This document shows, piece by piece, positions 36,716 through 64,000 of a DNA stretch of 64,000 nt. Position 1 is the stretch's first letter. The number at the start of each line of letters is the position of its first letter. The DNA comes from an uncultured Opitutales bacterium. GTDB lineage: Bacteria > Verrucomicrobiota > Verrucomicrobiia > Opitutales > JABDGR01. The stretch lies in the NCBI GenBank assembly GCA_964561455.1, contig CAZLPS010000009.1:13380-77379 (forward strand), in the 5' to 3' direction. Below the pieces are notes generated by a model. It did no database searches, was not told the origin of the DNA, and saw only the letters and a program-made list of their open reading frames with translations. A program made the position numbers and the translations under genes.

Positions 36716-36723
36716 CGGCTAGT

Positions 36724-37888: not shown

Positions 37889-37900
37889 GGGTGCACGCGA

Positions 37901-38533
37901 TTATTTATAGATCACGCGGGTATCGCACATACGATCGTGCAATCCGCGCTTTTCGGCGTCAAATCCAACCATGATATACCCGATGCAGAGAATCATTGCG
38001 CTCACGATCTTGCTGGCCCAGCGACCCAACGCCCGCAGGTACGAGACGGGTCCGCCGTCGGCAGTGACGACTTTGATCCGGCACGCCATCTTGCCGAGGG
38101 TGGCGCCATACTTTCCGATGAAAAAGACTTCATAGGCGATTCCAATCACCAGCCCGAGCACGCCAGCAGTGATTTTCTGGCCCGCCGACTCACTCGCCAT
38201 GCTTTCCTGGGTCTGGATGGCACTCAGGCCAAGCGCCAGCCGAAAAAGGATCGAGAATATATTCATTACGATTGCATCCAAAAACCAGGCCAGAATGCGT
38301 ATCCAAAACCCAGCGTAACGAAACGCCAGGGGATCAATGCGCGCGCCCTCGGCCAGCTTCTGCATGAAAATAGGTTTGCAACCGGCGCAGACGTAACTGT
38401 CGCCATGTTTGATCATCTCATCGGCGGCAAAGAGTTTGCCGCATTCCACGCATACTCGCGTCGCGCCACCGCCCGCTGTTCCTAACGGCGGCGGAACGGG
38501 GTTTGGCTCGGGATTCGAATTCCAGTCGCTCAT
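37901..38533 (-). CDS. Zinc-ribbon + RDD family membrane protein (paralog B)
   Basis: The N-terminus is CVECGKLFAADEMIKHGDSYVCAGCKPIFMQKLAEG. The RDD body contains RYAGFWIRILAWFLD and GATLGKMACRIKVV. It is collinear with 38670-39314. Confidence 0.8.
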   Translation of the reverse strand: MSDWNSNPEPNPVPPPLGTAGGGATRVCVECGKLFAADEMIKHGDSYVCAGCKPIFMQKLAEGARIDPLAFRYAGFWIRILAWFLDAIVMNIFSILFRLALGLSAIQTQESMASESAGQKITAGVLGLVIGIAYEVFFIGKYGATLGKMACRIKVVTADGGPVSYLRALGRWASKIVSAMILCIGYIMVGFDAEKRGLHDRMCDTRVIYK

Positions 38534-38564
38534 GGGGGTTCCTGGGTTGGGGGTTCGACCTTCT

Positions 38565-38593
38565 TTTAGCTAATAAATAACGATTGACTGCAA
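38565..38593 (-). promoter_or_regulatory. Candidate promoter of RDD paralog B
   Basis: The minus strand reads TTGCAG-17 nt-GCTAAA. The same architecture occurs at the same distance from the start codon upstream of paralog A. Confidence 0.35.
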
Positions 38594-38669
38594 GCTTAAT
38601 CAATACCCCCCATGGAAAATCAGCCCATTCCGGCAATTTATCCGGGCCGGGTGTCCGGGGCCCGGGGGG

Positions 38670-39314
38670 CTATTTGTAAATCACGCGGGTGTTGCACAAG
38701 AAATCCTGCGCCGCCCGCTTTTCCTTGTCAAACGCCGCGGGGAGAAAGGCCGCCAGTTCCAGATAAATGTTGGCCCGGGCAATGTTCTTGCAAAACGCAC
38801 GGCTCAATGCGCGCCGGTACGACACGCTTTCGTTTTGGCCCGTTACCACCCGGATCTTGCACGCCATTTTGCCCAAAGTGGCGCCATATTTGCCAATCAT
38901 CAGGGTCTCATAGACGGTCATGATGATCGTCCGGGCCACCAACACCCAAATAGACGCCATGAAAAAAACGCTCGGCAATACATTAGCTGACGGCCGGGAG
39001 GCGGTGGCCAAAAGCACCAGCACCAGTACCACGCCGATGGGAATGCCGACAACGATTCCGTCCACCAGTAGCGCTCCAAATCGCACCCAAAATCCGGCAT
39101 AACGCATTTCCGCCGGGTCAATCCGCGCGCCTTCCGCCAGCTTTTGCATGAAAATCGGTTTGCAACTGGCGCAAACGTATGCCTCCCCGTGCTTGATCAT
39201 TTCTTCCACGGCAAATACCTGGCCGCATTCAACGCACGCGTGCGTCGCGCTTCCCGCTGGCCCCATGGGCGGCGGTACAGAACTTTGTCCAGGGTTTGCC
39301 TGCCAATCACTCAT
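38670..39314 (-). CDS. Zinc-ribbon + RDD family membrane protein (paralog A, first gene of cluster)
   Basis: The N-terminus is CVECGQVFAVEEMIKHGEAYVCASCKPIFMQKLAEG. The RDD body contains RYAGFWVRFGALLVD and GATLGKMACKIRVV. Confidence 0.8.
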   Translation of the reverse strand: MSDWQANPGQSSVPPPMGPAGSATHACVECGQVFAVEEMIKHGEAYVCASCKPIFMQKLAEGARIDPAEMRYAGFWVRFGALLVDGIVVGIPIGVVLVLVLLATASRPSANVLPSVFFMASIWVLVARTIIMTVYETLMIGKYGATLGKMACKIRVVTGQNESVSYRRALSRAFCKNIARANIYLELAAFLPAAFDKEKRAAQDFLCNTRVIYK

Positions 39315-43851: not shown

Positions 43852-45678
43852 TCATTTCTCTGCTCCCACAGCGCCCTTCAACTTTTGCCGCAATGCGGCG
43901 CGTTGGACTTCGCTGAGATTTGCGGTTTGGGCGGCGGACGCTGCGGCGGTGGGGTTGTTCGCTGACCAGGTGGTGAGGACCGTTTCAATTTGCGCGGCGC
44001 GCAAGTCGGCGTTGGCGATGGTGTTGGCCCAGGTAAAGGCGGCGACGGGGTCCTTGGCCGCTTGCGCAGAGACCATTTCTTTGACGGCAGCGTCGCGCAG
44101 GTCGCCGGGCATGAGAGTATTGATCCAGAGGGAAAGAGCTTGGGGGTCTTCTTGGACCCACGTTGCGGCCATGGACTCAGTGGCAGTGACTTGTGCCGGT
44201 CCGGCGGGAATTTCGTCGAGCAATGAAACGGCCTGGTCGGGACTTCTTTGAATATCGGCCACGACCAAATTCGTCATGGCGTCGTCGTGGACGGTTCCCG
44301 CTGGCAAACTCTGCACAAAGGCCAGCGCGGCGGGAAAATCCTTTCGGGCCAACCCGTCCGTCAAAATCGGCGCGGCGGCGGCGAATAAGTTGGGGTCCCC
44401 CGCGCTTTGCAGGTAGGCCGTCGCGGCAGCCGGATCCTCGCCCGCCCATTGGGTGATGATGTTCGTAACGGTGTCATTGCGCGAAACCCCATTGGTCTCG
44501 GTCAAAGTCACCGCCCAGGCCAGGGCGCCTTTGGGATCAGATTCGCCCCAGCGGTCGGCGATTTCGTTGATTGCGATTGGCAGGGCTCGTGGGTCGGCGA
44601 CTTTATCCAGCAACGCGATGGCGGCAGCCGGATTGGCGTCGCCGAACATCGAAAAGATGGCGGGAATACTCGCCAGGTAACTGGGGCCGGAAACCGATTG
44701 GTTGAGCCATTCGAGCGCTTGCGTCGAGCCCGCCACTGTGACAACCCCGTCCTGATCCTGGGTCCAAGCAGCGAATATATTCATGAGGATTAGTCTTCGT
44801 TCGTTGGCATTGCCGACTTTGTTCACGTAGTCGGCAGCCAGCTTTGGATTTGAAGTCGCCAGCCCAACAAGGATTTCGTCCAAAATTCCGGAATCAGGCG
44901 GGGACAAGGACGTCGCCCAATCCAGGGCCGCTTGCGGTTCGGCGCCGGGCGGATAAGGAGGATTGGAAAAAACGTCCCTCCATCGTAGAGCCACTAAATT
45001 CAGTGCCTCTTCGCGCGCCGCGCTTGGGGGAATGCATGTAACCAGCGCAGCCGCCCCGGCTGGGTCCGTTTCAGCAATGCGCTCCAAGGCAAACCCCACA
45101 ACATCTCTCAGTTCCAGCAGATCTCCGCCGGATAGTTTTCCCAACAGCAGCAAGGCGTCCTTCGGATGATCTTGCGATAATTCTTCGAGGGCTGAGCCCA
45201 TGATCTCCTTGCGCTTGGCGAAATCGGTCAAGTCGGCGCTCAGAGTCCAGGCCAGGAGGGGATTCTGCGGCGCCAGAAACTGGAGCAACCGAAACTTGAT
45301 ATCATCCCGCTCCGCGCTCGCGGCCCAACCGCCAAGCAGCTTGAAGAGCGTGCCCAAATCCTGCGGTCGGACGTGGAAGAACACCTCATCCAAATCCTCT
45401 TCCTGTTGTTCCTGGTTGCCGGTGTAATCGTCATGGGCCATGGCCGTCAACCGTTCCAGGGCCTCCTGGATGGTGAGATATTTTCTGCGGGGGAGAAATT
45501 CCTCCGTGGCGTTTTCCGCGGTGGTGAGCGCCGGGAACATGCTCTGCCGCAATGCCGCCGGGACTTCGCCAGCCCATTGGGCCACCGGCCCCGGCGCCCG
45601 GCCCAACAGATAAGCGCCTCCCATCGCGGCCCCCAGGAGGCCGACGCGAAGGATGACCATGCGGCGTGGCAATTTCAA
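43852..45678 (-). CDS. Membrane-anchored helical-repeat protein (paralog 3 of 4)
   Basis: An N-terminal TM helix is followed by repeated motifs (ALDWATSLSPPD, ALAWAVTLTETN, AFTWANTIANADLRAAQIETVLTTW). The family is the same as 47-3305, but there is no Gly-rich tail. Confidence 0.7.
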   Translation of the reverse strand: MKLPRRMVILRVGLLGAAMGGAYLLGRAPGPVAQWAGEVPAALRQSMFPALTTAENATEEFLPRRKYLTIQEALERLTAMAHDDYTGNQEQQEEDLDEVFFHVRPQDLGTLFKLLGGWAASAERDDIKFRLLQFLAPQNPLLAWTLSADLTDFAKRKEIMGSALEELSQDHPKDALLLLGKLSGGDLLELRDVVGFALERIAETDPAGAAALVTCIPPSAAREEALNLVALRWRDVFSNPPYPPGAEPQAALDWATSLSPPDSGILDEILVGLATSNPKLAADYVNKVGNANERRLILMNIFAAWTQDQDGVVTVAGSTQALEWLNQSVSGPSYLASIPAIFSMFGDANPAAAIALLDKVADPRALPIAINEIADRWGESDPKGALAWAVTLTETNGVSRNDTVTNIITQWAGEDPAAATAYLQSAGDPNLFAAAAPILTDGLARKDFPAALAFVQSLPAGTVHDDAMTNLVVADIQRSPDQAVSLLDEIPAGPAQVTATESMAATWVQEDPQALSLWINTLMPGDLRDAAVKEMVSAQAAKDPVAAFTWANTIANADLRAAQIETVLTTWSANNPTAAASAAQTANLSEVQRAALRQKLKGAVGAEK

Positions 45679-45714: not shown

Positions 45715-47649
45715 CTACGGCGCCAGGTTGTATTGCCGGGCGCTTTTCGCATTCAACGCCGTCAGGAGTTTATCCCTCGTGCTGGCGCGGACCTTCGGGT
45801 CGCTGATGGTCATGGCCCAGTACAGCGCGTCCTCGACGTCGGTCGGAGCCTGGTGCTGAATCACCTGCAAGAGCAGGGCGTCGCGCTGGCTGCCGTTGGG
45901 CAGGGTCGTCAATTGCATGGTGAGCTGCACCAACTCCACCTGCGCTGCTTTGGTTTGGGGATCGCTGATACTGTTGGCCAACTCGAGGGCGGAATTTGGG
46001 TTGGAGGCGGATTGCGCGCTGATCAACTGCACCGTGGCGGCGTCCCGCAGGTCTCCCGCCGGCTGGTTGGCCAGCCAGCCGGCCAGGGCTTTGGGATTCT
46101 GCTGCGCCCAGGCGGCGGCAAACGTGTTGGTGGCCTCAATTTGCGCCGGACCGGCGGGTATTTGGGAAATAATTCCGGCCGCCGCCGCCGGGTCGTTCAT
46201 GCTTTCCGTGATGACCAGTCCGTTCAACGTGGCGTCACGTTTGGGGTCCGCCGGCAAATTGAGCGCATAATTCCAGGCGGTGGAAAAATCAAATTGGGCA
46301 ATTTGATATAAGGCGCTCGACAGCGCCATATCCTTGTTCGAGCCGTCGGGAAGGTTTTGGACGAACTCCAATGCCGCCTTGGGACTGTCAGCAACCAGGT
46401 AGTTGGCAATGTTGGACGCGGCGGCCAGGAAAAGCGACTGATCCGGCAGGTTTTGCACGTACGCCGCGGCGGCCGCCGGCTCGTTGCTCCACCACCGCGA
46501 GAGAATTAACGCCGCGGCCGAATCCCCGGCAGCCCGATCGGCATCGGGCAGCGATTGGGCCCAGGCAATTCCGGCTTCCCTTCCGCCGGTCCAATCGCTC
46601 GCTATTCCATTGATCATTTGCGCGCGCAAATCGAGCCCGGTGACCTTTTCCAACAAGGCGGGCGCATCCTCCATCCCGCTCACATGTCTGAAAATGTCTT
46701 GCACGGCATGGTCATAGGTCGTTCCGGTGGCGACCTCGTTAAGCCAATCCAAAGCCATCGGCGCTGCGGTCTTTCTTATCTCCCACGGCGTCATATTCGA
46801 GTTGTCGCCGAGGTCATCGCCCCAATGGGCGGTGACGTACTCAATCGTCTCATTGCGGGCTTTTACATCCTGAATGTTTTCCACAAAGGATGCCGCCAAT
46901 TGGGGAACCTTGGGCACGGCATCTTTGATGGCGTCCGTGAGAATGGACGGGTTCTCCGGCAATAGGGCACTGGCAAAACGCAGGGCATCCTCGTAATCTG
47001 AGCTTAGGGCGACCCCGCGCAGCGCCCCGCTCCGTGCCTCTCCCGGGGGCAGGGCGAGCGCGGCCGCAGCGACTTCGGAAAAATGTTCAGGCTGGGAAGC
47101 CCAAACCTGGTAAACCCGGCAATAGGGGCCTGCCGCCCCAAGGTCAGGCGGGAGTTTGTCCAATTCCGCGAATGCGAGGGCGAGGTCTTTTTCCGCCAGG
47201 GCCTCGAGGGCATTGTTGAATTGTTCGGTGCGTTGATCGGGGTCGGAAATTTTGCCGGAAAGAGCCAGGGCCGCCGCGGGGTCTACCGCCCGAAGTTTCT
47301 TAAACAAGCTTTCAAAAATATGGCGATAATCCTTCTCTTCGCCCAAGAGCGAGCAAACTTGTTCAATCAGGAATGGCAAATCAAGGGGATTAACTCGCTC
47401 AACAATATGATCGAGGCCCATGGGGTATTTACCCTGCAGGAACAATTGCAATTCCTGCAAAGCTTGCGCGCGGGTCAGGACTGCGGGCTCCTGCTTTGCC
47501 AACGCGGCTTTGTGTATGGCTTGTTCCCTGGCGGCCGCCTGGGTTTCCTCTTTTTCAATCCGCTGCGACACCCCGGCCATATAGGCCATGGCGACTGCGG
47601 CGAGGACAAAAGCCGTGCGAACGATCAACCTGGGGATGCGGGCTTTCAT
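45715..47649 (-). CDS. Membrane-anchored helical-repeat protein (paralog 4 of 4)
   Basis: An N-terminal TM helix is followed by motifs such as ALDWLNEVATG, GIAWAQSLPDAD and ALYWAMTISDPKVRAS. It is collinear with 43852-45678. Confidence 0.7.
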   Translation of the reverse strand: MKARIPRLIVRTAFVLAAVAMAYMAGVSQRIEKEETQAAAREQAIHKAALAKQEPAVLTRAQALQELQLFLQGKYPMGLDHIVERVNPLDLPFLIEQVCSLLGEEKDYRHIFESLFKKLRAVDPAAALALSGKISDPDQRTEQFNNALEALAEKDLALAFAELDKLPPDLGAAGPYCRVYQVWASQPEHFSEVAAAALALPPGEARSGALRGVALSSDYEDALRFASALLPENPSILTDAIKDAVPKVPQLAASFVENIQDVKARNETIEYVTAHWGDDLGDNSNMTPWEIRKTAAPMALDWLNEVATGTTYDHAVQDIFRHVSGMEDAPALLEKVTGLDLRAQMINGIASDWTGGREAGIAWAQSLPDADRAAGDSAAALILSRWWSNEPAAAAAYVQNLPDQSLFLAAASNIANYLVADSPKAALEFVQNLPDGSNKDMALSSALYQIAQFDFSTAWNYALNLPADPKRDATLNGLVITESMNDPAAAAGIISQIPAGPAQIEATNTFAAAWAQQNPKALAGWLANQPAGDLRDAATVQLISAQSASNPNSALELANSISDPQTKAAQVELVQLTMQLTTLPNGSQRDALLLQVIQHQAPTDVEDALYWAMTISDPKVRASTRDKLLTALNAKSARQYNLAP

Positions 47650-54682: not shown

Positions 54683-54819
54683 CACGCGAAGCCGCGAAGT
54701 GGCGAAGATTAAAATCGCCCACGAACCAACCCGAATGACCTTGGCCAATCAAGAACCCCAATTCATACGCTTTCGTGCTCAAAATCCTTCGCGTTTTCGC
54801 GCCTTCGCGTGCGCCCTCC
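54683..54819. repeat. Inverted pair of GCGAAG-flavour heptamer arrays
   Basis: The left array reads cacgcga agccgcg aagtggc gaagatt. The right array reads tccttcg cgttttc gcgcctt cgcgtgc. Confidence 0.55.
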
Positions 54820-54858
54820 GGTTCGGTGTCCGGGCCAGAATGATCAAAGCGTAAAAAG

Positions 54859-54891
54859 TGCTCGGGAAGGGACTTGAACCCATCTGCCACC
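54859..54891 (-). other. tRNA 3'-end-like fragment (candidate att remnant at an island boundary)
   Basis: The minus strand reads GGTGGCAG ATGGG TTCAAGT CCCTT CCCGAGC A. This is a T-arm with a canonical GTTCAAGTC loop (one stem mismatch) plus a 7-nt acceptor 3' strand and a discriminator base. No matching 5' acceptor strand (GCTCGGG) or D or anticodon arms lie upstream. Confidence 0.35.
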
Positions 54892-55148
54892 GCGAAGCTA
54901 AGTTGCTCATTAACGCGGACTTAGTTGATTGTGAATGGATTAGAACTGGAAGCAAGATACACCTAGTTGCAAGAAAGATAAACAAAATTCATTGATTCTG
55001 GCAACCTCTTGGCAACCTCTATTCGAAAATTGGAAACGCTCGAATTGGAATATCTAAATCAGTATAACAAGGGCTGGACGAGACCGGGGTAGGTATTCAA
55101 GCTAATCGAGCATGCAAGAGAAGTCTAATCGAGCACCTAGAAGCGGGG

Positions 55149-56438
55149 TTGCCCATTTTCTTCAAGAATGGGGTGCGCTTATCTGAGGGAGTGAAGTATA
55201 TAGTTCCCCAAATTACCGAACTAAGTAGCCTTATGCCAAACGACGCGACAACTCCAGCAACCGGGGAGCCGAAAATGACTGCGCCTCCCGCTCCGCAATG
55301 CCCTCCGGCAACGGAAATAGCTTTGGCTTTTCCAATTAACAAGAAGCGATTTGCTATCGCGTGCATTATTTTTGCCAATTTATTTGTTGCAGCTATGGCA
55401 GTTGCTATCGGCATGGGTGTATGGGGCGGAGAAGGATATTGGCATGATATTGTGCGTCGCGCATGGCACAGCATGCAAGAGTTTGGAGATGCCGCTGGAT
55501 TGCCGAGGACTGTCATGAGTATTTTTCTATACTTTGCCCTGAATATACTCCTCGTCCATTTGATTAGAGGGAGAAGTTCCGCGCGCGAAAAACTTTTAGA
55601 TACTTTTGTTGGGCTTATAACTTCCATTTCCTTTTTAGCCGTGGTATTCTTGGTCATTATTATTTTCATCGCTCCGTCTGAGATGTACAAAGAAAGCCGA
55701 ATAGAGAAAGCAACGCTATTGACCGAAAACTTACATACAAAGGCCGACCTATTAATTGTTACAAATGATAACGGAAATTTGACGGCTGAAAATAAAACCA
55801 TCAACGACAGGCTAAGCACCGTCGCATTAGCTTCCGGCATTAATCCGAATGGTGGTCTTAGTGAAAAGATAGATGTTTTTATTGCAGATTTTCAACAAAC
55901 AATAAAAGACCTCCAACAAAACAAGCAAGCCGTTCTCGGGCTACAGGATGAATTAAAAAAATCCGAGATTCCAATTGGCGCACAGTCAATTGCGGCAATA
56001 ACAGTAACTTGCGAAATATCGTATGTTTCAACGGAAGCAAAGAATGCAAATTATTCTCTTTTTACAGGATTGATGTGTTTCGGGCGAGGGGACATCGGGT
56101 TAATTATGGCCAAAGCCACGTCCATATCTTCCACAAGCGACGGCAAGGGCCATATAATTATAAGGGCTACTGGGGCTATGGCCGACGATGATAGTTTTTC
56201 AGGTAATCCGATTTCCAGCCTTGCGAGCAGCGAATACATTGAGATTATATTTGATAAGGCGATTTTGGCGGAGAATACCCCTATATTGGGCGGCCATATA
56301 ACATGGGTCGTAAATAAGGAGCATGTTTTCAGGTTCGATATCCCGGCGCAAGTCGCAAGCAAATCCGCGATTCCAGATGCTGTATTTGTTAAAATAAAAA
56401 ACCTGTCCGATGGGTTTAAATCATTAAATCAAAAGTAG
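55149..56438 (+). CDS. Orphan AT-rich membrane protein (three TM helices, coiled-coil-like linker, beta-rich C-terminal domain)
   Basis: This is the longest ORF in a visibly AT-richer segment. The TM helices are FAIACIIFANLFVAAMAVAIGMGVW, VMSIFLYFALNILLVHLI and LITSISFLAVVFLVIIIFIA. The likelier start is the ATG at 55275, which has GGGGAG 7 nt upstream. No family was recognised. Confidence 0.6.
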   Translation: MPIFFKNGVRLSEGVKYIVPQITELSSLMPNDATTPATGEPKMTAPPAPQCPPATEIALAFPINKKRFAIACIIFANLFVAAMAVAIGMGVWGGEGYWHDIVRRAWHSMQEFGDAAGLPRTVMSIFLYFALNILLVHLIRGRSSAREKLLDTFVGLITSISFLAVVFLVIIIFIAPSEMYKESRIEKATLLTENLHTKADLLIVTNDNGNLTAENKTINDRLSTVALASGINPNGGLSEKIDVFIADFQQTIKDLQQNKQAVLGLQDELKKSEIPIGAQSIAAITVTCEISYVSTEAKNANYSLFTGLMCFGRGDIGLIMAKATSISSTSDGKGHIIIRATGAMADDDSFSGNPISSLASSEYIEIIFDKAILAENTPILGGHITWVVNKEHVFRFDIPAQVASKSAIPDAVFVKIKNLSDGFKSLNQK

Positions 56439-57037
56439 GGCAACGCACCTAAAACACGCCAAAGAAAACAACAATTTCGCGGAATTTATTGAACTTTGCA
56501 AGAAAACCCATCCTCACGCCATCCAGCGGCACTTTCATGCCGTGGTTAATTTGTTACTGGCTCGTTATCGTTGGTCGCTTAACGGACATTGAAGTTTCCG
56601 GGCAAAATGCTTGAAATGGGACGACCGCCTCCGCCCCCTCCTTATGGGCTCGTACAGGATTGCCACAATGAACACAAGTAAACGGGGTCTTAAAATCCTT
56701 TCCTTTGTATTGGCTACGAATTTCGAGAGCATTGGCAATGCCGATACGTTCGCCTTGGTAGATAACTCCGCCCATAGATCTTATTTAACTCCTCGCCACC
56801 ATCGCGCCCTACCCACCCAGCTTGCCCGGAGCGCTCGCAACTGCGCTGGTACCTCACTGCCTGGCCAGATGCGTGACGGCCGGGCTCCGGGGGTGACTTG
56901 GCGGATCATTACCAGCGTAGCGGGTGGGACATAGCATTTTGGGAGTATCCCTATTGCGCGCAGTCCATTTTTACTTTGTCAGGTAGAGATATTTCTGGTA
57001 ACGGATTCACGACGAAAATGGATCAGGAACCCCCACG

Positions 57038-60000
57038 TTGAAATTTTTTGCCCCATCTGATGCTCGGATGTCGCCTGTTTTTTTGCCAGCGACAATGCGG
57101 TGCTTTGTGGTTTTTCTGGTTTTGCTGATGGGGATTGGTTTTCAAAATACTGGACGCGGCGCAACCTTTGACGGCAACGGGTTCCTGCAAATTCCCGACA
57201 GCACCGGTTCGCTGAGTTGGAATGGGACCAATAATGCGCTCACCGTTATGTGTTGGGTAAAACTTTCCTTCCCGTCCAACATTACCCTTACCAGCAGCGA
57301 CCGCATGGTAGTGATCGTGAATCGCCAGACCGGCAGCGCTACGAGCAATACGTATGCTTTTCTAATCCAGTTTAACGCTTCGACCGGGAACTTGGAATTT
57401 CAAACCCGGGGCAGTACTGCAACCTCGACGCCGCTTACCCTCGTCACTCGTCCTTTCCTGGATCGGTGGTATCATGTGGCCATTGTGCGGGCGGGAAATG
57501 TCATTCAGGCCTATGTAGACGGCGAGCCGGTTTCCCCGACAGTTGACGCATCATCATTGGGGAACCCCTCGAACACGGACGGTGTTTCGGTTGGCGGCTG
57601 GACCGGTAGCCGAAACCTAGTGGGCGAAGTGGAAGAAGTGCGCATTTTTCAAACTGCATTGAATCAAGGCGATATTCAGCAAGTCATGTTTGAGGATTTG
57701 GTTCCTTCCGATTGGCCGCCCCTCACCGGGTATTTCAAGTTTGGCCCGGCCACTGCTCAAAGCGATAGCCTAAAAAACTATGCCCTAGCTCCGGCGGCCG
57801 GGACCGATAGCGCATCCATTTCCGGTTCGGGAGTTACCTTCCCCCAAGTGGATCAGGCAGGCGAACAATCGCTCTTTGACTCCCACCGGAATGGCGGGCG
57901 CGACGCCGTCGCTCCTTTGTCGGGCGCTTTTACCTGGCAACACACTCTTTTTTCCCGCCCAACCAAAGGGGTGGGGTTTGATTTTACCATTGGCTATTCC
58001 AGCGCGCTTTCTTTCAACGATGCCAATCCATTCCTCGTCACTCCACTCGGCCATGGTTGGCGGCACAGCTTGGAGGCGCGTGTCATCCTGCCGGATTTAA
58101 TCCAGGGCTTTAGCACGCTCATTTTGAGCACGTGGGACGGCGATTTGATCGTTTGGGACCTGGATGAGACCAATCTAAATTCCACCAGCTATTTGGCGCG
58201 CGACGGCCAGTATCATGGGGAACTGCAATTCGAGGGCAGTAACCCCGGTGCCTCCAGCGCCATTCTGGACTGGATAACCCCCGATCGCCAGATTTACCGT
58301 TTTCACACTCCTTTTGCCGGCTCTCCAACCACGCTGCGCGGTCGATTGCTCAACATTGGAGATTATGCCGGAAACAAGATCACCATCAGCCGCTTTACCA
58401 CTGGAACCTTGTCCGGCGAAATTAACACCGTGACCGACTCGGCTGGCAGCACCTACCAATTCACCTACAATGCCAGCTCGCAATTGACCAAAATCGCCCT
58501 CAATGGCACATCCTGGGCATGGACTTTTACCTACGGCCTTTTCAATTCCGGCTCGCCAGCCGACAATCTGCTTACCAGCGTCGCGACCACTGGGCCGTCA
58601 TCCGTCTCGCCAGTGGCGACCACTTGGAGTTTTGACTACCAAGCGGAGAATAATGCCTGGTTGATCAAAACCATTCAAGATCCTCTCGGAGCGAGTAACA
58701 ACCGTCCGGCAAAACTCATCAACGTTACCTACGATACATATGGCCGGAAAACCACGGTTGACGACGCCCTCAATCGGCAAACAGCCTTTCAGTATAACCT
58801 GCCAGCGACCCGCCAGGTGACGACAACCGATGCGCGAGCCAATACCTGGATCACTACCTATGACCGCCGACTCAATGTCACCGCTGCCGCTGATCCCTAC
58901 GGCAACACCACTGCTTACGTTTATGATGGGGCCGGCAATCCTACTCAAATAACAGATCCCCTTGGGAACATCACGCATCACACCTATGACGCCCGGAGTA
59001 ATGTCTTGTCCACGACCGATGCTCTCAATTTCACGAACTTCGCCACCTATCCCGACAATTTGCCTGCCAATGCGCCTTTCCTGAATAGTCCCTTGACCAC
59101 CACCGACGCCACTAGTTGGGTGCAAACCTATGTTTACGATTCTGCAAATGGTAAACTCCTTCGACAGTTTGATGGCTTGGGCAATTTAGCCATTTACACC
59201 TACACGACCACCGGTTTGGTGCAAAACGTGACGGATGCCAATGGCAACGTAACCTCGTTTGCCTACTCTCCGGAGGGCTTTCTCGCTTCTCGGCTCGACC
59301 CGGGCCAATCTACGGCCGCGACTTTCACCCATACAGATTTCGGCTGGCTGGCCACGACCACCAACCCGCTGGGTGAAGTTACCCAGAGTTTTTACGATGT
59401 AAATGGCAACTCGGTGAGCGTGATTGATGCCCTGCAACGCAACCACGTCCGCGTCTTTGACCTCAACAGCAACCTCATCGAAGACGACGACTTCAAGAGC
59501 CAACGCACCACTTATACCTATGACGATGCCAATGAGCGAATAGGCATGGTCACTCGCGACGGGCAGCACTGGTCATACCAATACAGCCCCACGGGCAAAC
59601 TCGCTCAAACCACCGTGCCCTCCACTTCGCCAGACACGCCGGACATCATCAATACCTATGACAATGCCGACCGCCTCGTAAAAGTCGCGCAGACCACTAG
59701 TTCCACTGAATACAGTGTGCAAACCGTTTACGACGCCGCCGGCAATCCGACGACGACCATTGACCGAAACGGCCAGGAATGGGTTAAGACTTACGATGCC
59801 CTAAATCGGGTCCGCACGGAAAAAGATCCCCAGGGGAACCAAGTGACTCGAACTTACGACGCCAACGGGCGCATCGCCGATATCATCTCCCCCACGGGCA
59901 ACACCCAGCACCACCTTTACGATAACCGTGGCCGGTTGCACACCTGGCAGGATGGCGAGGGTGGCGTTTGGACCTATGCCTACGACGGCAACGGCAATAT

Positions 60001-62176
60001 CTTACTCATCACTGATGCGCTCAAAGGCAATTACACCATGACCTACGGGCCGCGCAACGAACGCCTTACCGAGACGAATCAGGACAACAAAACTTGGACG
60101 TACACGTATGACGCCCTCCTCCGTCCATATAATGAAACTGATCCGAATGGCCGCACGAATGCCAATACTTATAATTCGGGCGGCCAACTGATTTCGGTGG
60201 CATATTCCACCGGGCGCGCGGATGCCATTAGTTACGATGCGAACAACAATGTGCACATGCTGACGCGCACCGATTCCGGTGGGGCCACAACCGCCACTAC
60301 GCTGGAATATGACGCGATGGACCGCATCATCGGCAACTACTTAGACGCCCATTTCACGGCCGGATTTGAATATGACCCTTTGGGCCGGCGCAAAACGCTT
60401 AATTATCCTGACGGCAAGCCACTTTCGTATTCATATGACGCGCTTGGGCGCCTGACCAAACAAACCGACTGGGCCAACCGCCAGCTTAACTACTCCTACG
60501 ACAGTGCTGGCCGTCTCCAGACCCGCACCTATCCCAACGGCGTGAGCCAGATCAATGGTTATGACAACGCAGGCCGGTTGACTCTGCTACGCTATTCCTC
60601 CACTGCCTCCAACACAACGCTACTCGAATACGAATACACTTACGACCCCAATAACAACCTTTCTTCGTCGGATGAAGTGGGCACGCTCGATTGGACACCG
60701 CCCGCGCATCTGCCCAACGAAACCTCCGCCTTTACCGCTGCTGGCCGCCTCGTCACCCGCCAGGATGCGGCTGATACTTCAGGAAAGCACAATTGGTCTT
60801 ATTCCTACGACGACGCCGGGAACATGAACAACGCCACGCGCAATGACGGCGCGAAGTATCAGCTCACCTACGACGAGCAGAACCGTACCACCCGCATCCA
60901 GTGGACGCCTGGCCAGGCGGGGCTATCAGGTGCAGCCTCCGCCGCAGACATTACCAACCATTACGATGCCTTGGGTCGCCGCGTTTCACGCACCCTAAAT
61001 GGCACGGAAACGCGCTACGCGCTCGACCTCGGCGGCTCCATGGAGCGCGTCCTGTGCGACACGGATGCCACCGGGAAGATTACCGCTTGGTATGTCCATG
61101 GACCCGACCTGTGCTATAAAATTACCCTTGACGGAAACGATCAGGAAGTCCTCACGGACTACCATGCCGACACAGCGGGCAACGTCGTCATGCTCACCGG
61201 TGCCAACGCCACCATAGCGGAAAAATATGCCTTTACGCCCTATGGCCGCCTCCTCGGCGAACAAGCCACGAGCGGCACCCTCTCCGGCAACCCCTACCGC
61301 TTTGCGGGTTCACAAGGCGTCATAGAGGAACTCCCTGGCCTCTCCTTCATGCGCGCCCGCTACTACCTCGCTGAAGAGGGCGTGTTTTTAAGCACAGACC
61401 CGGTGAAACATGCCGGTCCTGAGTGGGGATCAAAAACGTATGTTTACACAAATGGGAACCCTGTTGGTTTTATTGACGCAGATGGAAATGGTCCCATTGA
61501 GGCAATACTTGGTGCTGCGGTTGGAATGGTCGCTGGTTTTACTTCGGAGGTGGTCAATCAAAGCATCAATAAGTTTTTAGAGCACCGTCAATTTGATTGG
61601 AATGAAGTTGTAACCTCAACTGCGGCTGATGGATTGGGCGGACTTGCCGGTGGACTTGCAGATGATCCTGCCGAAGGAGGAGCTGTCGCAGAAGATTACC
61701 GTGGTTATATTAGAGCAACTTCCAATGGCGAGGTATACACTTCGCAACAGTTTCTAGCCGACTCAATTAAGGGCGCTGCTACGGCTCAAATCCTAGATCA
61801 AATGTACAGTTCAAGTTTTGGAAACGTTCCCGGTGTTAAACCATCTACCATTAGCGGTGCGTTTCAAGGGGCACACTTTGTAGACACAGTTGCGCGAAAT
61901 TCTAGTGCCGCTCTTGAAGAAGTGATTCAAGCCACCACTGCATCACATCAAGCATCCTCCTTGAACTCATTTCAGTCTACGAAGGCTATCGCGCCTTCCG
62001 TCAATTCCGGGACTTCTAGCTCTGGCGGTGGGAGTTCTATCACCATCCCGAAGGGCGCAACGCTGTCGGGCATTGCCGCGCAGAATAACACTACCGTTTC
62101 AAATCTCCTTAAGCTCAATCCCCAGATCACGAATGCGAACAAAATCCAGGCTAATGCAAAGCTGAAAGTGAAATAA
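57038..62176 (+). CDS. LamG-domain RHS/YD-repeat protein with variable C-terminal tip ending in a LysM domain
   Basis: The N-terminal signal or anchor is VVFLVLLMGIGF. A LamG-like region runs FDGNGFLQIPD ... LTVMCWVKLS ... DRWYHVAIVRAGNVIQAYVDGEPV ... VEEVRIFQTAL. There are dozens of YD repeats, for example YVYDGAGNPTQITDPLGN and YAYDGNGNILLITDALKGN. The RHS core end reads YRFAGSQG ... FMRARYYLAEEGVFLSTDPV ... YVYTNGNPVGFIDADGNG. A 227-aa tip follows, ending in ITIPKGATLSGIAAQNNTTVSNLLKLNPQITNANKIQANAKLKV (LysM). Confidence 0.9.
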   Translation: MKFFAPSDARMSPVFLPATMRCFVVFLVLLMGIGFQNTGRGATFDGNGFLQIPDSTGSLSWNGTNNALTVMCWVKLSFPSNITLTSSDRMVVIVNRQTGSATSNTYAFLIQFNASTGNLEFQTRGSTATSTPLTLVTRPFLDRWYHVAIVRAGNVIQAYVDGEPVSPTVDASSLGNPSNTDGVSVGGWTGSRNLVGEVEEVRIFQTALNQGDIQQVMFEDLVPSDWPPLTGYFKFGPATAQSDSLKNYALAPAAGTDSASISGSGVTFPQVDQAGEQSLFDSHRNGGRDAVAPLSGAFTWQHTLFSRPTKGVGFDFTIGYSSALSFNDANPFLVTPLGHGWRHSLEARVILPDLIQGFSTLILSTWDGDLIVWDLDETNLNSTSYLARDGQYHGELQFEGSNPGASSAILDWITPDRQIYRFHTPFAGSPTTLRGRLLNIGDYAGNKITISRFTTGTLSGEINTVTDSAGSTYQFTYNASSQLTKIALNGTSWAWTFTYGLFNSGSPADNLLTSVATTGPSSVSPVATTWSFDYQAENNAWLIKTIQDPLGASNNRPAKLINVTYDTYGRKTTVDDALNRQTAFQYNLPATRQVTTTDARANTWITTYDRRLNVTAAADPYGNTTAYVYDGAGNPTQITDPLGNITHHTYDARSNVLSTTDALNFTNFATYPDNLPANAPFLNSPLTTTDATSWVQTYVYDSANGKLLRQFDGLGNLAIYTYTTTGLVQNVTDANGNVTSFAYSPEGFLASRLDPGQSTAATFTHTDFGWLATTTNPLGEVTQSFYDVNGNSVSVIDALQRNHVRVFDLNSNLIEDDDFKSQRTTYTYDDANERIGMVTRDGQHWSYQYSPTGKLAQTTVPSTSPDTPDIINTYDNADRLVKVAQTTSSTEYSVQTVYDAAGNPTTTIDRNGQEWVKTYDALNRVRTEKDPQGNQVTRTYDANGRIADIISPTGNTQHHLYDNRGRLHTWQDGEGGVWTYAYDGNGNILLITDALKGNYTMTYGPRNERLTETNQDNKTWTYTYDALLRPYNETDPNGRTNANTYNSGGQLISVAYSTGRADAISYDANNNVHMLTRTDSGGATTATTLEYDAMDRIIGNYLDAHFTAGFEYDPLGRRKTLNYPDGKPLSYSYDALGRLTKQTDWANRQLNYSYDSAGRLQTRTYPNGVSQINGYDNAGRLTLLRYSSTASNTTLLEYEYTYDPNNNLSSSDEVGTLDWTPPAHLPNETSAFTAAGRLVTRQDAADTSGKHNWSYSYDDAGNMNNATRNDGAKYQLTYDEQNRTTRIQWTPGQAGLSGAASAADITNHYDALGRRVSRTLNGTETRYALDLGGSMERVLCDTDATGKITAWYVHGPDLCYKITLDGNDQEVLTDYHADTAGNVVMLTGANATIAEKYAFTPYGRLLGEQATSGTLSGNPYRFAGSQGVIEELPGLSFMRARYYLAEEGVFLSTDPVKHAGPEWGSKTYVYTNGNPVGFIDADGNGPIEAILGAAVGMVAGFTSEVVNQSINKFLEHRQFDWNEVVTSTAADGLGGLAGGLADDPAEGGAVAEDYRGYIRATSNGEVYTSQQFLADSIKGAATAQILDQMYSSSFGNVPGVKPSTISGAFQGAHFVDTVARNSSAALEEVIQATTASHQASSLNSFQSTKAIAPSVNSGTSSSGGGSSITIPKGATLSGIAAQNNTTVSNLLKLNPQITNANKIQANAKLKVK

Positions 62177-62243
62177 CGCTTCCGTCACCTTAAATTCGAC
62201 TCCAATGACCCCGGCCAGTTCCATCAAGCAGCCCATTTACAGC

Positions 62244-64000
62244 ATGACAAAGTTCATGCTGCTGGGGCTGTTTGTGGCCAAGTCTGTCCATGCCCAAATT
62301 GCCCTGGATAACTCAATCCCGGTTGGCATCCAGACTGGCTCTTCCGAAACTCTGGCCTACACGGTGTCAGGTTCAGATACATTTTTGATCGTGGGAATAT
62401 CGGTTCAGGGAGGAGCCACCTGCACAGGCGTTTTCTACAGCGGAATTCCCATGACTCAAGCAGGAGCACCCGTTTTATATTCTGCCATTAACGAATACGA
62501 GTATACTTATATACTGCTTGGGCCTTCGTCGGGCACACATAATATTTTGGCTACTTTTAGCGGGTCTGCGGTCAATGCAATTACTGCTGCTTCCTACACG
62601 GGCGTCGCGGCTGTTGATACTACAAACATCACGTCGTCCACTTCCGCCAGAGACTGGTCAGGCACCATTACTACTGCGGTAGATGGCGAGTGGATTGTTG
62701 GATACGCCAGAGCGTCCGGGCCCATGACGGCAAGGGACAATACCATCATCAGGCAAGACCCAGTCAGTGAAAACATTATTGATTCAAACGGGGCGGTCTT
62801 TAGTTTGGGATCTAATTCTATTGGAGTACATCAAGGTTCAATTGATTTCATGTATATTGGGGCTGTAGCGCTCAAGCCGGGTGTCCAATCGGGTGGCCAA
62901 TCTGGGTGGAATTATGGGGATGGCCGGCACGGCTCCTATACGTTAACCACCAGCATGACCATCGAGCAGCTTTACCAAGCCGTGCGCCTTCCCACTGATC
63001 CGGCGCAGTACAACCCGTCAGATCCGGGCGCAGTTCCCAATTTTGCGAATTTCACCGTGGCCAACAATTCCACGCTCTCGGCGTCCGCTTGGAATGGCAC
63101 CGTCGGTGGTACAATCGTTTTTAAAACCCAATTTACGCTGCAAGTGGTGGCGGGGGCTTCGATTTCGGTCAATGGCCTTGGGTATGGCGGGGGAGCCACC
63201 TTTCAGGCAGGTGATGCACCACCGGGAAGTGGTGGCGGCGGAAGCGGGGGCGTGGTGGTAAAAAATGGCCGTTTCACGAATTATACCCCCGGCGGCGGAG
63301 GAGGTGGGTATGGATCACCGGGCGGCAACGGGATTTACGTGCTTTTTAACGGTGGACCTACCGGTGGCTGGGGTGGGAACGCTTATGGCAACGAAGTCTT
63401 GGATGCCTTACTCTTGGGTAGCGGTGGTGGCGGCGGGGCCAGTGGTGATCCTGTGTTGCGTCCGGAAGATGGCGGCAGTGGGGGTGGCGCCATAGCGCTA
63501 AGTGCCGCCCGAATTATCCTCAATGGTACAATCCAAGCCAATGGGGGTGGAGGTGGGTATACCTCCAATTCCCTCTTTCAATCTAATGGAGGTGCGGGCG
63601 GTGGAGGCGGGAGTGGCGGATCGGTGTTGATACGCACGAATTCTGCGGCTTTGGGTGTAAACAATCTTTCCGCCAGCGGTGGCGTCGGCGGGTATTTGGG
63701 TGGCACCGGCGGCGATGGCAGAATCAGAATCAATTTCTCCGCCAGCACTACTGGAACCACCTCGCCAGCAGCGTCCTTCTTTAACGACAACACCAACGAT
63801 GTGGATGGCGATGGTGTTCCAGACGCGGTCGAATGGGGGCCGGATTTGGATCATCCCAAGGACACCGATCATGATGGCATTCCCGATTTCATGGACTCCG
63901 ACAGCGACAATAACGGCATTCCGGATTCGGTGCAATTGGGCCCGGATGGCCTGGATCGCACCCAGGACACTGATGGCGATGGCATTCCGAATTATTGGGA
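62244..64000 (+). CDS. Large secreted glycine-rich protein with thrombospondin type-3-like calcium-binding repeats (3' end beyond window; absent from the ORF track)
   Basis: Hand translation shows an open frame from the ATG at 62205 or 62244 to the window end without a stop. The signal peptide is MTKFMLLGLFVAKSVHAQ. Gly-rich blocks include GGGGGGYGSPGGNG, SGGGGGASG, GGAGGGGGSGGSVLIR and GGVGGYLGGTGGDGRIRI. These are followed by DVDGDGVPDAVE, DTDHDGIPDFMD, DSDNNGIPDSVQ and DTDGDGIPNYW. Confidence 0.75.
   Translation, partial: MTKFMLLGLFVAKSVHAQIALDNSIPVGIQTGSSETLAYTVSGSDTFLIVGISVQGGATCTGVFYSGIPMTQAGAPVLYSAINEYEYTYILLGPSSGTHNILATFSGSAVNAITAASYTGVAAVDTTNITSSTSARDWSGTITTAVDGEWIVGYARASGPMTARDNTIIRQDPVSENIIDSNGAVFSLGSNSIGVHQGSIDFMYIGAVALKPGVQSGGQSGWNYGDGRHGSYTLTTSMTIEQLYQAVRLPTDPAQYNPSDPGAVPNFANFTVANNSTLSASAWNGTVGGTIVFKTQFTLQVVAGASISVNGLGYGGGATFQAGDAPPGSGGGGSGGVVVKNGRFTNYTPGGGGGGYGSPGGNGIYVLFNGGPTGGWGGNAYGNEVLDALLLGSGGGGGASGDPVLRPEDGGSGGGAIALSAARIILNGTIQANGGGGGYTSNSLFQSNGGAGGGGGSGGSVLIRTNSAALGVNNLSASGGVGGYLGGTGGDGRIRINFSASTTGTTSPAASFFNDNTNDVDGDGVPDAVEWGPDLDHPKDTDHDGIPDFMDSDSDNNGIPDSVQLGPDGLDRTQDTDGDGIPNYW

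What the first reader, a model, noticed from the sequence alone, without database searches (positions are those of the whole stretch)
57038..62176. LamG-RHS/YD shell protein with an unrecognised C-terminal payload that ends in LysM
This is a canonical polymorphic-toxin architecture: an N-terminal targeting region (here signal or anchor plus a LamG/concanavalin-like domain), a long YD-repeat shell, and the RHS core ending at the ...NPVGFIDADGNG demarcation, followed by a variable tip. DNA composition drops to AT-richer almost exactly at that demarcation (around 61.43-61.50 kb), the signature of tip replacement by recombination. The 227-aa tip matches no toxin domain I know. Unusually, it terminates in a LysM peptidoglycan-binding module. 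No PAAR, VgrG or other T6SS gene and no two-partner-secretion gene is visible nearby, so the delivery route is unclear and may be Sec-dependent release.
Basis: partly seen in the sequence, partly recalled or inferred. Interest (0 to 1): 0.65.

Follow-up and report, generated by a model that had tools for sequence, protein, structure and literature searches.

The report
RHS toxin-like protein, LysM-tagged payload
This is a large secreted "cocoon" (RHS) protein of a Verrucomicrobiota bacterium whose enclosed C-terminal cargo is built from a recently swapped-in module of unknown function followed by a conserved cell-wall-binding LysM tag; this three-part design is common in that bacterial group but has not been described.

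Summary
ORF 57038..62176 (likely start 57095) encodes a conserved Sec signal peptide, a LamG domain, a YD/RHS shell and an RHS core. Both autoprotease aspartates are present (D1454, D1480), and a 227-aa tip ends in LysM.

The interpretation needs revision in four respects.
1. The foreign, AT-rich block is internal (nt 61406-61954). Its GC3 is 0.32 against 0.64 for the gene. The linker and LysM (GC3 0.62) look like the shell, so LysM is a retained tag, not part of the swapped payload.
2. LysM-ended tips are common in this Verrucomicrobiota RHS clade: 25 of 70 non-redundant tips, joined to at least seven unrelated central modules. Other tips end in aromatic amphipathic "FFxxLFGG"-type or polybasic tails, which suggests interchangeable envelope-address tags.
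3. The central module belongs to a rare family of about eight members. It is acidic, Gly/Ala-rich and helical, and has no invariant catalytic-type residues. It matches no Pfam, NCBIfam or PDB entry and gave no confident fold.
4. No immunity-like gene follows. Instead a large TSP3-repeat surface protein lies directly downstream, here and in at least 23 of 36 related loci.

The best reading is a Sec-exported polymorphic RHS toxin with an envelope-directed payload. The activity is unknown. I rate it a new variant of a known kind.

The parts
57038..62176 (+). RHS/YD-repeat protein ORF, 1712 aa from the first TTG. The likely true start is ATG 57095 (1693 aa).
57095..57160 (+). Predicted Sec signal peptide MRCFVVFLVLLMGIGFQNTGRG. 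The mature end ATFDGN is conserved in homologues.
   Evidence: sequence, plus N-termini of 24 full-length homologues; no signal-peptide predictor was run
57173..57679 (+). LamG / concanavalin-like domain (Laminin_G_3), aa 46-214
   Evidence: E 4.3e-17
57902..58087 (+). Weak DUF6531-like region (aa 289-350) ahead of the shell
   Evidence: E 0.0016, below the Pfam cutoff
58088..61234 (+). YD/RHS-repeat shell, about aa 351-1399
   Evidence: 15 RHS_repeat stretches; 12 YD_repeat_2x; matches to solved Rhs shells
61235..61486 (+). RHS-associated core (aa 1400-1483). It carries the aspartyl-autoprotease pair D1454 (nt 61397-61399, 'STDP') and D1480 (nt 61475-61477, 'IDADG').
   Evidence: TIGR03696, 45.8 bits; alignment to 8h8a ('qqDp' and 'iDptg')
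61406..61954 (+). Compositionally foreign block (codons 1457-1639, GC3 0.317). It is the putative swapped-in cassette: the last ~28 aa of the core plus the central tip module.
61493..61954 (+). Central tip module 'tip-A' (aa 1486-1639). It is predicted helical, Gly/Ala-rich and acidic, and begins with a GxxxGxxxG helix (LGAAVGMVAG).
61955..62041 (+). Ser/Thr/Gly-rich spacer (aa 1640-1668)
   Evidence: sequence; (spacer composition across the clade: S 19%, T 13%, G 13.5%, A 11%)
62042..62173 (+). C-terminal LysM domain (aa 1669-1712), at the extreme C-terminus
   Evidence: 31.5 bits; PDB LysM proteins; pLDDT 67-80, beta-alpha-alpha-beta
62205..64000 (+). Conserved partner gene, which runs off the window (997 aa on contig L001). 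It encodes a signal peptide, a Gly-rich region, TSP3_bac repeats, a YD-like motif and Ig_3. No terminator-like site lies between it and the RHS stop.

Best explanation
This is a Sec-exported RHS polymorphic toxin of a Verrucomicrobiota bacterium.

Shown:
- It has a signal peptide, LamG, a YD shell, and an RHS core with both autoprotease aspartates.
- A 227-aa tip follows the cleavage motif.
- The central ~155-aa module, plus the last ~28 core residues, has foreign codon composition. The spacer and LysM have the composition of the rest of the gene.
- Across relatives the centre is hypervariable, while the core and LysM are conserved.

Inferred:
- The core cleaves after DADG(N), and the whole tip is held unfolded or loosely folded inside the shell.
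- The protein leaves the cell by a Sec-dependent route (T2SS-like or unknown), possibly helped or tethered by the co-transcribed TSP3-repeat surface protein.
- On release at a target cell, the C-terminal tag places the payload at the cell envelope. The tag is LysM here (peptidoglycan). Sister proteins carry an aromatic amphipathic helix or a polybasic tail (membrane).
- The helical Gly-zipper module then acts non-enzymatically on the envelope, most plausibly by perturbing the membrane as the Rhs payload Tse5-CT does.
- New central modules are acquired by recombination between the conserved core and the conserved spacer/LysM, that is, by double-crossover cassette exchange.
For: - Architecture and catalytic residues.
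- Conserved signal peptide.
- Internal foreign block: GC3 0.317 against 0.641, p 1e-18, with LysM shell-like. The central module also has lower GC3 than LysM in 13 of 15 other LysM loci.
- Mosaic conservation across 22 proteins: core 0.64, centre 0.22, LysM 0.50.
- LysM joins at least 7 unrelated central modules. The tip-A module occurs with LysM (window, P0121, P0124), with an aromatic amphipathic tail (P0002, P0012), or with a basic or coiled tail (P0123, P0122).
- Aromatic 'FFxxLFGG' tails occur at 24% of C-termini against 0.4% of internal windows.
- One clade member carries Peptidase_M23 as its tip (P0041), which points to the cell wall compartment.
- Tip-A has no invariant catalytic-type residues and starts with GxxxGxxxG. 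It is predicted all-helical.
- Precedent for an Rhs-encapsulated, non-enzymatic, membrane-depolarising payload: Tse5-CT (PMC9637101; PMC11630599).
- Tip lengths in the clade are narrowly 216-283 aa, consistent with a packaging limit.
Against: - No immunity-like gene lies next to the RHS gene, here or in the other tip-A loci.
- Tip-A in the window is acidic (pI 4.4). Its most hydrophobic 19-residue window scores only 1.45 on the Kyte-Doolittle scale, below the usual 1.6 for a membrane span.
- The window copy carries an 11-residue deletion and has lost the family's 'VRG' motif, so it may be inactive.
- The structure models are poor (pLDDT 46.6 and 66.1; four of the five models of the second run scored below 50). 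Foldseek found nothing significant.
- Toxicity, cleavage, encapsulation of LysM and secretion are all untested.
- A sister metagenome contig has a nonsense codon in the shell (W604*).
Confidence: 0.5

Rival explanations
1. The toxin is directed at eukaryotes, or at least at non-kin organisms, in the manner of Tc toxins. The RHS cocoon and the lectin/TSP3/Ig-rich partner bind the surface of a protist, alga, fungus or invertebrate. No immunity gene is needed because the producer is never a target. The C-terminal tags (amphipathic or polybasic tails, LysM) localise the payload in or on the target.
For: - No immunity gene lies next to any examined locus.
- Partner proteins carry eukaryote-type adhesion domains: TSP3_bac, Ig_3, Lectin_C, LamG.
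- By my recollection, Tc toxins also lack immunity genes.
- Also by my recollection, LysM binds chitin as well as peptidoglycan.
Against: - No TcA-like or TcB-like domains were detected.
- LysM has no obvious ligand inside a eukaryotic cell.
- A Peptidase_M23 tip in the same clade (P0041) points to bacterial cell wall.
- High polymorphism of the central module is more typical of inter-bacterial conflict.
Confidence: 0.15
2. This is not a toxin but a surface or periplasmic structural and adhesion system, teneurin-like. The RHS shell is a scaffold. The C-terminal spacer and tag (LysM, amphipathic helix or polybasic tail) anchor it to the producer's own peptidoglycan or membrane, and the translationally coupled TSP3 protein is its surface partner.
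For: - There is no immunity gene.
- Tight, conserved coupling to an adhesin-like partner is seen in at least 23 of 36 loci, often with an ATGA overlap.
- All the tags are envelope-binding devices.
- The central module lacks catalytic signatures.
Against: - Both autoprotease aspartates are conserved, unlike uncleaved teneurins (recalled from the literature).
- In solved Rhs proteins, residues after the core lie inside the shell (established knowledge).
- The central module is hypervariable and compositionally foreign. That is expected for a conflict system and not for an anchor.
Confidence: 0.2
3. The copy is decaying or inactive. The window's tip-A is a degenerate member and the gene is on its way to becoming a pseudogene, so no present function should be inferred from this copy.
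For: - The window copy has an 11-aa deletion and has lost the VRG motif relative to the family.
- A nonsense variant, W604*, occurs in an otherwise identical metagenome contig.
- The RHS gene's GC3 (0.64) is below that of host genes (0.72-0.78).
Against: - The 1712-codon frame is intact in the window.
- The catalytic residues, signal peptide and LysM are all intact.
- The single difference between the assemblies could be a sequencing error or a minority allele.
Confidence: 0.1

Closest known systems
Sec/T2SS-type RHS polymorphic toxins with N-terminal LamG or SH3 domains (Zhang et al. 2012, PMC3482391); WapA of Bacillus subtilis and Streptococcus suis (PMC12704120)
   Same: Both have a signal peptide, an adhesion domain, a YD shell, an RHS core with an autoprotease motif and a variable C-terminal region. 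Neither has T6SS genes nearby.
   Different: - Known examples have a cognate immunity gene directly downstream. None is present here.
- Where those proteins carry LysM, it is an N-terminal or internal adhesion and anchoring domain. Here it is the last domain, after the cleavage motif.
- The tip here has three parts: a variable module, a spacer and a conserved tag.
Tse5 (RhsP1) of Pseudomonas aeruginosa, an Rhs cocoon that encloses a non-enzymatic pore-forming C-terminal domain (PMC9637101; PMC10684867 as cited in PMC11630599)
   Same: The Rhs payload is ~150 aa and helical, with no enzymatic signature, and acts on the envelope. This is the working analogy for tip-A.
   Different: - Tse5 is delivered by the T6SS via PAAR and VgrG.
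- Tse5 has predicted transmembrane helices and a membrane immunity protein, Tsi5.
- Tip-A shows no sequence similarity to any PDB chain, is only borderline hydrophobic, and has no immunity gene or T6SS nearby.
Polymorphic toxins with a peptidoglycan-binding OmpA domain at the extreme C-terminus (Zhang et al. 2012, section 'Non-catalytic toxins')
   Same: A peptidoglycan-binding domain sits at the very C-terminus of a polymorphic-toxin scaffold.
   Different: - Those are PVC-delivered, and the OmpA domain itself was proposed as the toxin.
- Here LysM follows a separate variable module and behaves as a conserved, exchangeable tag.
- That paper explicitly contrasts LysM with OmpA, noting that LysM is not found at the extreme C-terminus.
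Tc toxins (TcB-TcC cocoon with TcA) and teneurins
   Same: Both have a YD/RHS cocoon. Tc toxins have no immunity gene and need a large partner protein. Teneurins place C-terminal domains outside the shell.
   Different: - No TcA, TcB or SpvB domains, beta-propeller or NHL plug were detected.
- The partner here is a TSP3/Ig surface protein, not a TcA.
- The catalytic aspartates are present, unlike in teneurins.

Membership tests
RHS / YD-repeat polymorphic toxin | Multiple YD/RHS repeats forming the shell | tested here: met
   Pfam RHS_repeat, 15 stretches, E 9e-65. TIGR01643, 12 stretches. Matches to solved Rhs shells 8h8a, 8cp6, 8qja and 7q97.
RHS / YD-repeat polymorphic toxin | RHS-associated core ending in a PxxxxDPxGL-type motif, with the two autoprotease aspartates | tested here: met
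   TIGR03696 matches aa 1400-1483 at 45.8 bits. The motif is P1475-VGFI-D1480-ADGN, with P replaced by A and L by N. D1454 and D1480 align with 'qqDp' and 'iDptg' of 8h8a. Cleavage itself was not tested.
RHS / YD-repeat polymorphic toxin | Variable C-terminal tip exchanged by recombination | tested here: met
   Related shells (37-53% identity) carry unrelated tips. A foreign GC3 block spans 61406-61954.
RHS / YD-repeat polymorphic toxin | Cognate immunity gene immediately downstream of the tip | tested here: not met
   The next gene starts 28-67 nt after the stop and encodes a 997-aa secreted protein. The other tip-A loci are the same. Mid-size downstream ORFs in relatives are spurious frames over toxin-antitoxin inserts and partner genes.
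RHS / YD-repeat polymorphic toxin | Recognisable toxin domain or demonstrated toxicity | tested here: inconclusive
   No Pfam, NCBIfam, PADLOC or PDB match. No confident fold. Toxicity cannot be tested with these tools.
T6SS-delivered Rhs effector | N-terminal PAAR or clade domain, or a nearby VgrG, Hcp or Tss gene | tested here: not met
   No such domain was found in the protein or in 30+ other genes of the window. A Sec signal peptide is present instead.
Tse5-like pore-forming Rhs payload | Hydrophobic transmembrane helices in the payload and a membrane immunity protein | tested here: not met
   The maximum 19-residue Kyte-Doolittle score is 1.45 in the window tip, and 1.3-2.1 across the family. 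No immunity gene is present. There is no sequence similarity to any PDB chain. The functional analogy is not excluded.
Tc toxin BC component | TcB-type N-terminal region (SpvB, beta-propeller) and an adjacent TcA gene | tested here: not met
   Pfam finds only LamG, DUF6531 (weak), RHS repeats and LysM. The partner has TSP3_bac and Ig_3 only.
LysM peptidoglycan-binding domain | Match to the Pfam LysM model above the gathering score, with a beta-alpha-alpha-beta fold | tested here: met
   PF01476 scores 28.1-31.5 bits against a cutoff of 20.9. The AF2 segment has pLDDT 67-80 with E-H-H-E topology. Binding was not tested.

The most novel reading that the evidence does not exclude
Verrucomicrobiota carry a distinct, undescribed two-gene RHS system. 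One gene encodes a Sec-exported LamG-RHS cocoon whose cargo is a swappable effector followed by a spacer and an interchangeable 'address tag'. The tag may be LysM for peptidoglycan, a MinD-like aromatic amphipathic helix, or a polybasic tail for membranes. The other gene, translationally coupled to the first, encodes a giant TSP3/lectin surface protein that serves as tether or delivery partner. The system works without a linked immunity gene. It would be a new T6SS-independent delivery mode for RHS payloads in diderm bacteria, with cassette exchange taking place between two conserved flanks.
Probability: 0.25. Interest if true: 0.8.

Novelty: new variant of a known kind. Interest (0 to 1): 0.55.

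Why it matters
How RHS toxins leave and enter cells is understood almost only for T6SS cargo and for insecticidal Tc toxins. Sec-dependent RHS proteins of diderm bacteria have no known delivery route.

This locus and its roughly 70 relatives give a defined, testable design: a variable module, a spacer and an envelope tag, together with a conserved partner gene. If the tags do address the payload to peptidoglycan or membrane, that would be a new principle for polymorphic toxins, in which the extreme C-terminus is usually the variable toxin itself. It would also explain how cassettes can be exchanged between two conserved flanks.

The absence of immunity genes raises two questions: what these proteins target, and how producers avoid self-harm.

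The central module family and its shared N-terminal Gly-zipper hairpin are absent from Pfam and could be added to toxin-domain catalogues.

Tried and rejected
Searches and models that gave nothing useful:
- A word-indexed search of 5.8 billion proteins with the tip found nothing. Neither did the 6-sequence profile. The second result is probably a cap artefact, because known members were not recovered either.
- Only the exhaustive phmmer run found relatives, six in all.
- The genome-contig scan with the single tip found nothing, and the alignment A1 was too variable to scan. The metagenome-contig scan with a 3-sequence tip alignment found nothing. A tblastn search of plasmids found nothing.
- Pfam, NCBIfam and PADLOC searches on the tip and on seven distant relatives gave nothing.
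- AF2 on the window tip gave pLDDT 46.6. AF2 on the better-behaved family member P0121 gave pLDDT 66.1, but the other four models scored 39-49.
- Foldseek against PDB and BFVD had best E-values of 0.46 and 0.29, so no match. The excess of membrane proteins among the non-significant hits is not evidence.

Ideas considered and rejected:
- Downstream 200-560-aa ORFs in related loci as immunity genes. They are Arg-rich frames running over minus-strand PIN-like toxin-antitoxin genes and over remnants of the partner gene's signal peptide.
- The 51-aa ORF in L003 as an immunity gene. It is not hydrophobic and not conserved.
- The upstream 401-aa membrane protein as immunity or partner. It has no homologue in 80 related loci.
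- Orphan tip cassettes or core remnants elsewhere in the window. None were found.
- Meaningful repeats flanking the foreign block. None were found.
Full report

Yes. The window holds an uninterrupted ORF at 57038..62176 on the + strand, 1712 aa. Pfam finds Laminin_G_3 at aa 46-214 (E 4.3e-17), 15 RHS-repeat stretches (E 9e-65), a weak DUF6531 match at 289-350, and LysM at 1669-1712. NCBIfam adds YD_repeat_2x and the RHS-associated core domain at aa 1400-1483. The string DADGNG is aa 1480-1485 (nt 61475-61492), and 227 residues follow it.

TTG 57038 is only the first possible start. A gene call on a nearly identical public metagenome contig begins at ATG 57095. That start gives MRCFVVFLVLLMGIGFQNTGRG followed by ATFDGN. 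Full-length homologues show the same layout: a hydrophobic leader, then 'ATF(P/S/T)GN' running straight into LamG. A cleaved Sec signal peptide is therefore the likely reading. No dedicated predictor was available.

**2. Is the RHS core competent?**

A phmmer search of PDB sequences aligns the end of the shell with the solved Rhs-family protein 8h8a. The window's 'ryylaeegvflstDpvkhagpewgsktyvytngnpvgfiDadg' pairs with 'aryydpklgrfiqqDpisiag...nhyqya-vnpiqwiDptg', and the 8h8a chain ends there. Both aspartates of the autoprotease, D1454 and D1480, are thus present. The demarcation motif is a variant, PxxxxDADGN, of the canonical PxxxxDPxGL. Cleavage itself remains an inference.

**3. The composition change is internal, not terminal.**

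Third-codon-position GC sharpens the picture. A two-breakpoint likelihood scan places a low-GC3 block at codons 1457-1639 (nt 61406-61954). GC3 is 0.317 inside and 0.684 outside, and the log-likelihood gain is 32.5 nats. The block has 58/183 GC3 codons against a gene-wide 0.641 (binomial p 1e-18). No other 183-codon window in the gene falls below 0.563.

The last 73 codons, the spacer plus LysM, have 45/73 = 0.616. That is indistinguishable from the shell (p 0.71) and different from the block (Fisher p 1.8e-5). The swapped-in segment therefore begins about 28 residues before the cleavage motif, just after 'STDPVK', and ends before the Ser/Thr/Gly spacer. LysM belongs compositionally to the resident gene.

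The same ordering, with the central module lower in GC3 than the linker plus LysM, holds in 13 of 15 other LysM-ended loci with DNA in hand. In those loci LysM is often intermediate between centre and shell.

**4. What is the central module?**

It matches nothing in Pfam, NCBIfam, PADLOC or PDB sequences. An exhaustive phmmer run over 1.84 billion cluster representatives found six proteins besides the window's own. Five are true relatives (P0121, P0002, P0122, P0123, P0124; 27-54% identity), all sitting directly after an RHS core. The sixth, P0125, is a repeat-protein false positive. Iterative profile searching among the tips collected here adds L039 and P0012 as full-length members. It also shows that the first ~70 residues are shared with tips in other RHS proteins, including one from a Cytophagales genome. 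That shared stretch is a GxxxGxxxG helix, a loop, a 'DW/NW' motif and a second Gly-rich helix. None of these relatives hits Pfam.

In the 8-sequence alignment the invariant positions are glycines. The 'VRG' and 'GSH' motifs are not invariant, and the window copy reads 'VPG' and lacks 11 residues present in the others.

The window module is acidic (pI 4.4). Its most hydrophobic 19-residue window, the first helix, scores 1.45 on the Kyte-Doolittle scale, below the usual 1.6 cutoff. Relatives reach 1.3-2.1.

AlphaFold2 with a 6-sequence alignment gave mean pLDDT 46.6; the model was all-helical and confident only for LysM. A second run on P0121 with 7 sequences gave a helical bundle at pLDDT 66.1, but the other four models scored 39-49. 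Foldseek against PDB and BFVD returned nothing significant. Two other libraries were unavailable.

The module is thus a rare, unannotated and probably non-enzymatic helical domain. Its activity is unknown.

**5. LysM-ended tips are common in this lineage, and LysM is one of several tags.**

Searching with the last 612 aa returned 435 RHS proteins. The closest shells (37-53% identity) are from Verrucomicrobiota metagenome-assembled genomes, mostly freshwater, with one from a Sedimentisphaerales genome.

Among 70 non-redundant tips of 200-320 aa from this clade:
- 25 end in LysM, always at the extreme C-terminus.
- At least 17 end in an aromatic amphipathic tail such as ...SIGNFFSSFFR, ...VGNFFSGLFGGRRP, ...NAWNWFTSLFR or ...SKAWGWLRGK. 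This pattern occurs in 0.4% of internal windows.
- 8 end in polybasic runs.

The aromatic tails resemble, from my memory of the literature, the C-terminal membrane-targeting helix of MinD (...KGFLKRLFGG). That comparison was not tested here.

A ~45-residue spacer rich in S, T, G and A precedes the tag.

LysM is joined to at least seven mutually unrelated central modules. Conversely, the tip-A module occurs with LysM of two subtypes (window and P0124; P0121), with aromatic tails (P0002, P0012), and with other tails (P0122, P0123, L039).

Across 22 LysM-ended proteins, mean pairwise identity is 0.64 for the core end, 0.22 for the centre and 0.50 for LysM. LysM identity correlates weakly with core identity (rho 0.22, p 8e-4) and not with the centre. 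Tip length is narrowly 216-283 aa in the clade, against 80-200 aa in more distant RHS proteins.

The third refutation condition is half met. Such tips are common in this lineage, but I found no paper that characterises them. Zhang et al. [quoted passage not shown] In WapA and in T6SS effectors, LysM is N-terminal or accompanies peptidoglycan hydrolases. The only paper in the library combining LysM, Verrucomicrobia and RHS repeats is that same survey.

**6. Genomic context.**

The rest of the window is housekeeping. It includes RecF, RuvC, a family B DNA polymerase, EPSP synthase, LptF/G, DegP-like proteases and a MoxR/DUF58 cluster. It has no T6SS, PAAR, VgrG or two-partner-secretion genes. 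GC falls from ~0.60-0.65 to ~0.40-0.55 at about 54.7 kb, just after ruvC.

No immunity-like ORF follows the RHS gene. The next gene starts 28 nt (ATG 62205) or 67 nt (ATG 62244) after the stop, and no terminator-like site lies between them. On the longer public contig it encodes a 997-aa protein with a signal peptide, a Gly-rich region, TSP3_bac repeats (E 1e-12), a YD-like motif and an Ig_3 domain. It is weakly similar to the myxobacterial surface proteins AgmC, MtsD and CglD.

A homologous large protein lies directly downstream of the RHS gene in at least 23 of 36 related Verrucomicrobiota loci with enough sequence, often with an ATGA start/stop overlap. The loci of P0002, P0014 and P0122 show the same arrangement.

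In several loci, small minus-strand PIN-like toxin-antitoxin genes are inserted between the two genes. There, a remnant of the partner's 'ALIPAL' signal peptide stays next to the RHS stop codon. The apparent 200-560-aa ORFs at those positions are spurious frames.

The upstream 401-aa membrane protein (55233-56438, GC3 0.42) has no homologue in any related locus. No orphan cassettes or core remnants occur in the window.

**7. How it most likely works.**

Shown: the domain order, the intact catalytic pair, the conserved signal peptide, the internal foreign block, the conserved tag, the missing immunity gene and the conserved partner.

Inferred:
1. The protein is exported by Sec and then leaves the cell by an unknown route.
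2. The core cleaves after DADG(N) and holds the 227-aa tip inside the shell.
3. On release at a target, LysM keeps the payload on peptidoglycan. Sister tags would keep it on membrane.
4. The helical Gly-zipper module then damages the envelope non-enzymatically.

Tse5-CT is the nearest experimentally studied analogue. It is a ~149-aa Rhs payload with no predicted enzymatic function that depolarises membranes. One tip-A family can carry either a peptidoglycan tag or a membrane tag. A clade member also carries a Peptidase_M23 tip (P0041). Both facts point to the periplasm or cell envelope as the site of action. The conserved spacer and LysM could also serve as a second homology arm for cassette exchange.

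I give this explanation 0.5. The weak hydrophobicity, the acidic charge, the lack of immunity and the degenerate features of the window copy all count against the specific membrane mechanism.

**8. Rivals.**

- An anti-eukaryote or non-kin toxin in the style of Tc toxins (0.15). This would explain the missing immunity gene and the lectin/TSP3/Ig partners.
- A non-toxic anchoring or adhesion scaffold (0.2). This fits the tags and the partner, but not the conserved protease residues or the hypervariable, foreign centre.
- A decaying copy (0.1). Supporting this are the deletion in tip-A and a TGG-to-TAG change (W604*) in the otherwise identical metagenome contig.

**9. Verdict.**

The protein is a member of the RHS polymorphic-toxin kind by shell, core, catalytic residues and variable tip. 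It fails the linked-immunity criterion, and no toxin activity can be assigned.

The new points are:
- the three-part tip with a conserved, exchangeable C-terminal envelope tag;
- the internal position of the recombined cassette;
- the rarity of the central module;
- the conserved TSP3 partner gene.

I rate it a new variant of a known kind, with interest 0.55.

Noticed in passing
window 58848 (codon 604 of the RHS ORF); L001 position 9843: A public metagenome contig (ENA ERZ27245402, k141_650915) is identical to the window over 14,995 bases except for one G-to-A change. That change turns TGG (W604) into TAG and splits the RHS gene into calls of 584 and 1056 aa. It could be a population variant, incipient pseudogenisation or an assembly error.
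   Followed up: partly
window 62205-64000 (+), continuing on L001 to 16193: The gene directly downstream encodes a 997-aa secreted TSP3-repeat, Ig and YD-like surface protein. A homologous large protein follows the RHS gene in at least 23 of 36 related Verrucomicrobiota loci, often with an ATGA overlap. This looks like a conserved two-gene cassette of unknown joint function.
   Followed up: partly
window 54700-57000, including ORF 55233-56438 (+): A low-GC island (GC 0.38-0.49) lies between ruvC and the RHS gene. It holds a 401-aa protein with about three N-terminal hydrophobic helices, a coiled region and a beta-rich C-terminus. The protein has no Pfam, NCBIfam or PADLOC hit and no homologue in 80 related loci.
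   Followed up: partly
related loci L004, L005, L012, L019, L026, L038, within about 0.1-1.5 kb after the RHS stop: Small minus-strand genes resembling PIN/VapC-type toxin-antitoxin modules are inserted between the RHS gene and its partner. A remnant of the partner's 'ALIPAL' signal-peptide coding sequence remains beside the RHS stop codon.
   Followed up: partly
tips of P0012, P0016, P0030, L015, L038, L051 and others (last ~16 aa): Many sister RHS tips end in an aromatic amphipathic motif (…NFFSGLFGG + basic, …NAWNWFTSLFR). From memory, this resembles the MinD/FtsA membrane-targeting helix. It occurs at 24% of C-termini against 0.4% of internal windows.
   Followed up: partly
window 43852-45678 and 45715-47649 (-): Two tandem paralogous proteins of ~610-645 aa (29% identity) have no Pfam or NCBIfam match. 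They are distantly similar to the ORF at 1368-3305.
   Followed up: no
window 29183-39314 (-): A cluster holds MoxR-type AAA_3 ATPase, DUF58, DUF4129, SpoIIM-like and three RDD-family membrane proteins. Two tandem DegP-like Trypsin_2/PDZ proteases lie at 17384-20632.
   Followed up: no
P0041 (relative of the shell, 54% identity over the core): One close relative carries a Peptidase_M23 (peptidoglycan endopeptidase) domain as its RHS tip. It is the only Pfam-recognisable enzymatic payload seen in the close clade.
   Followed up: no
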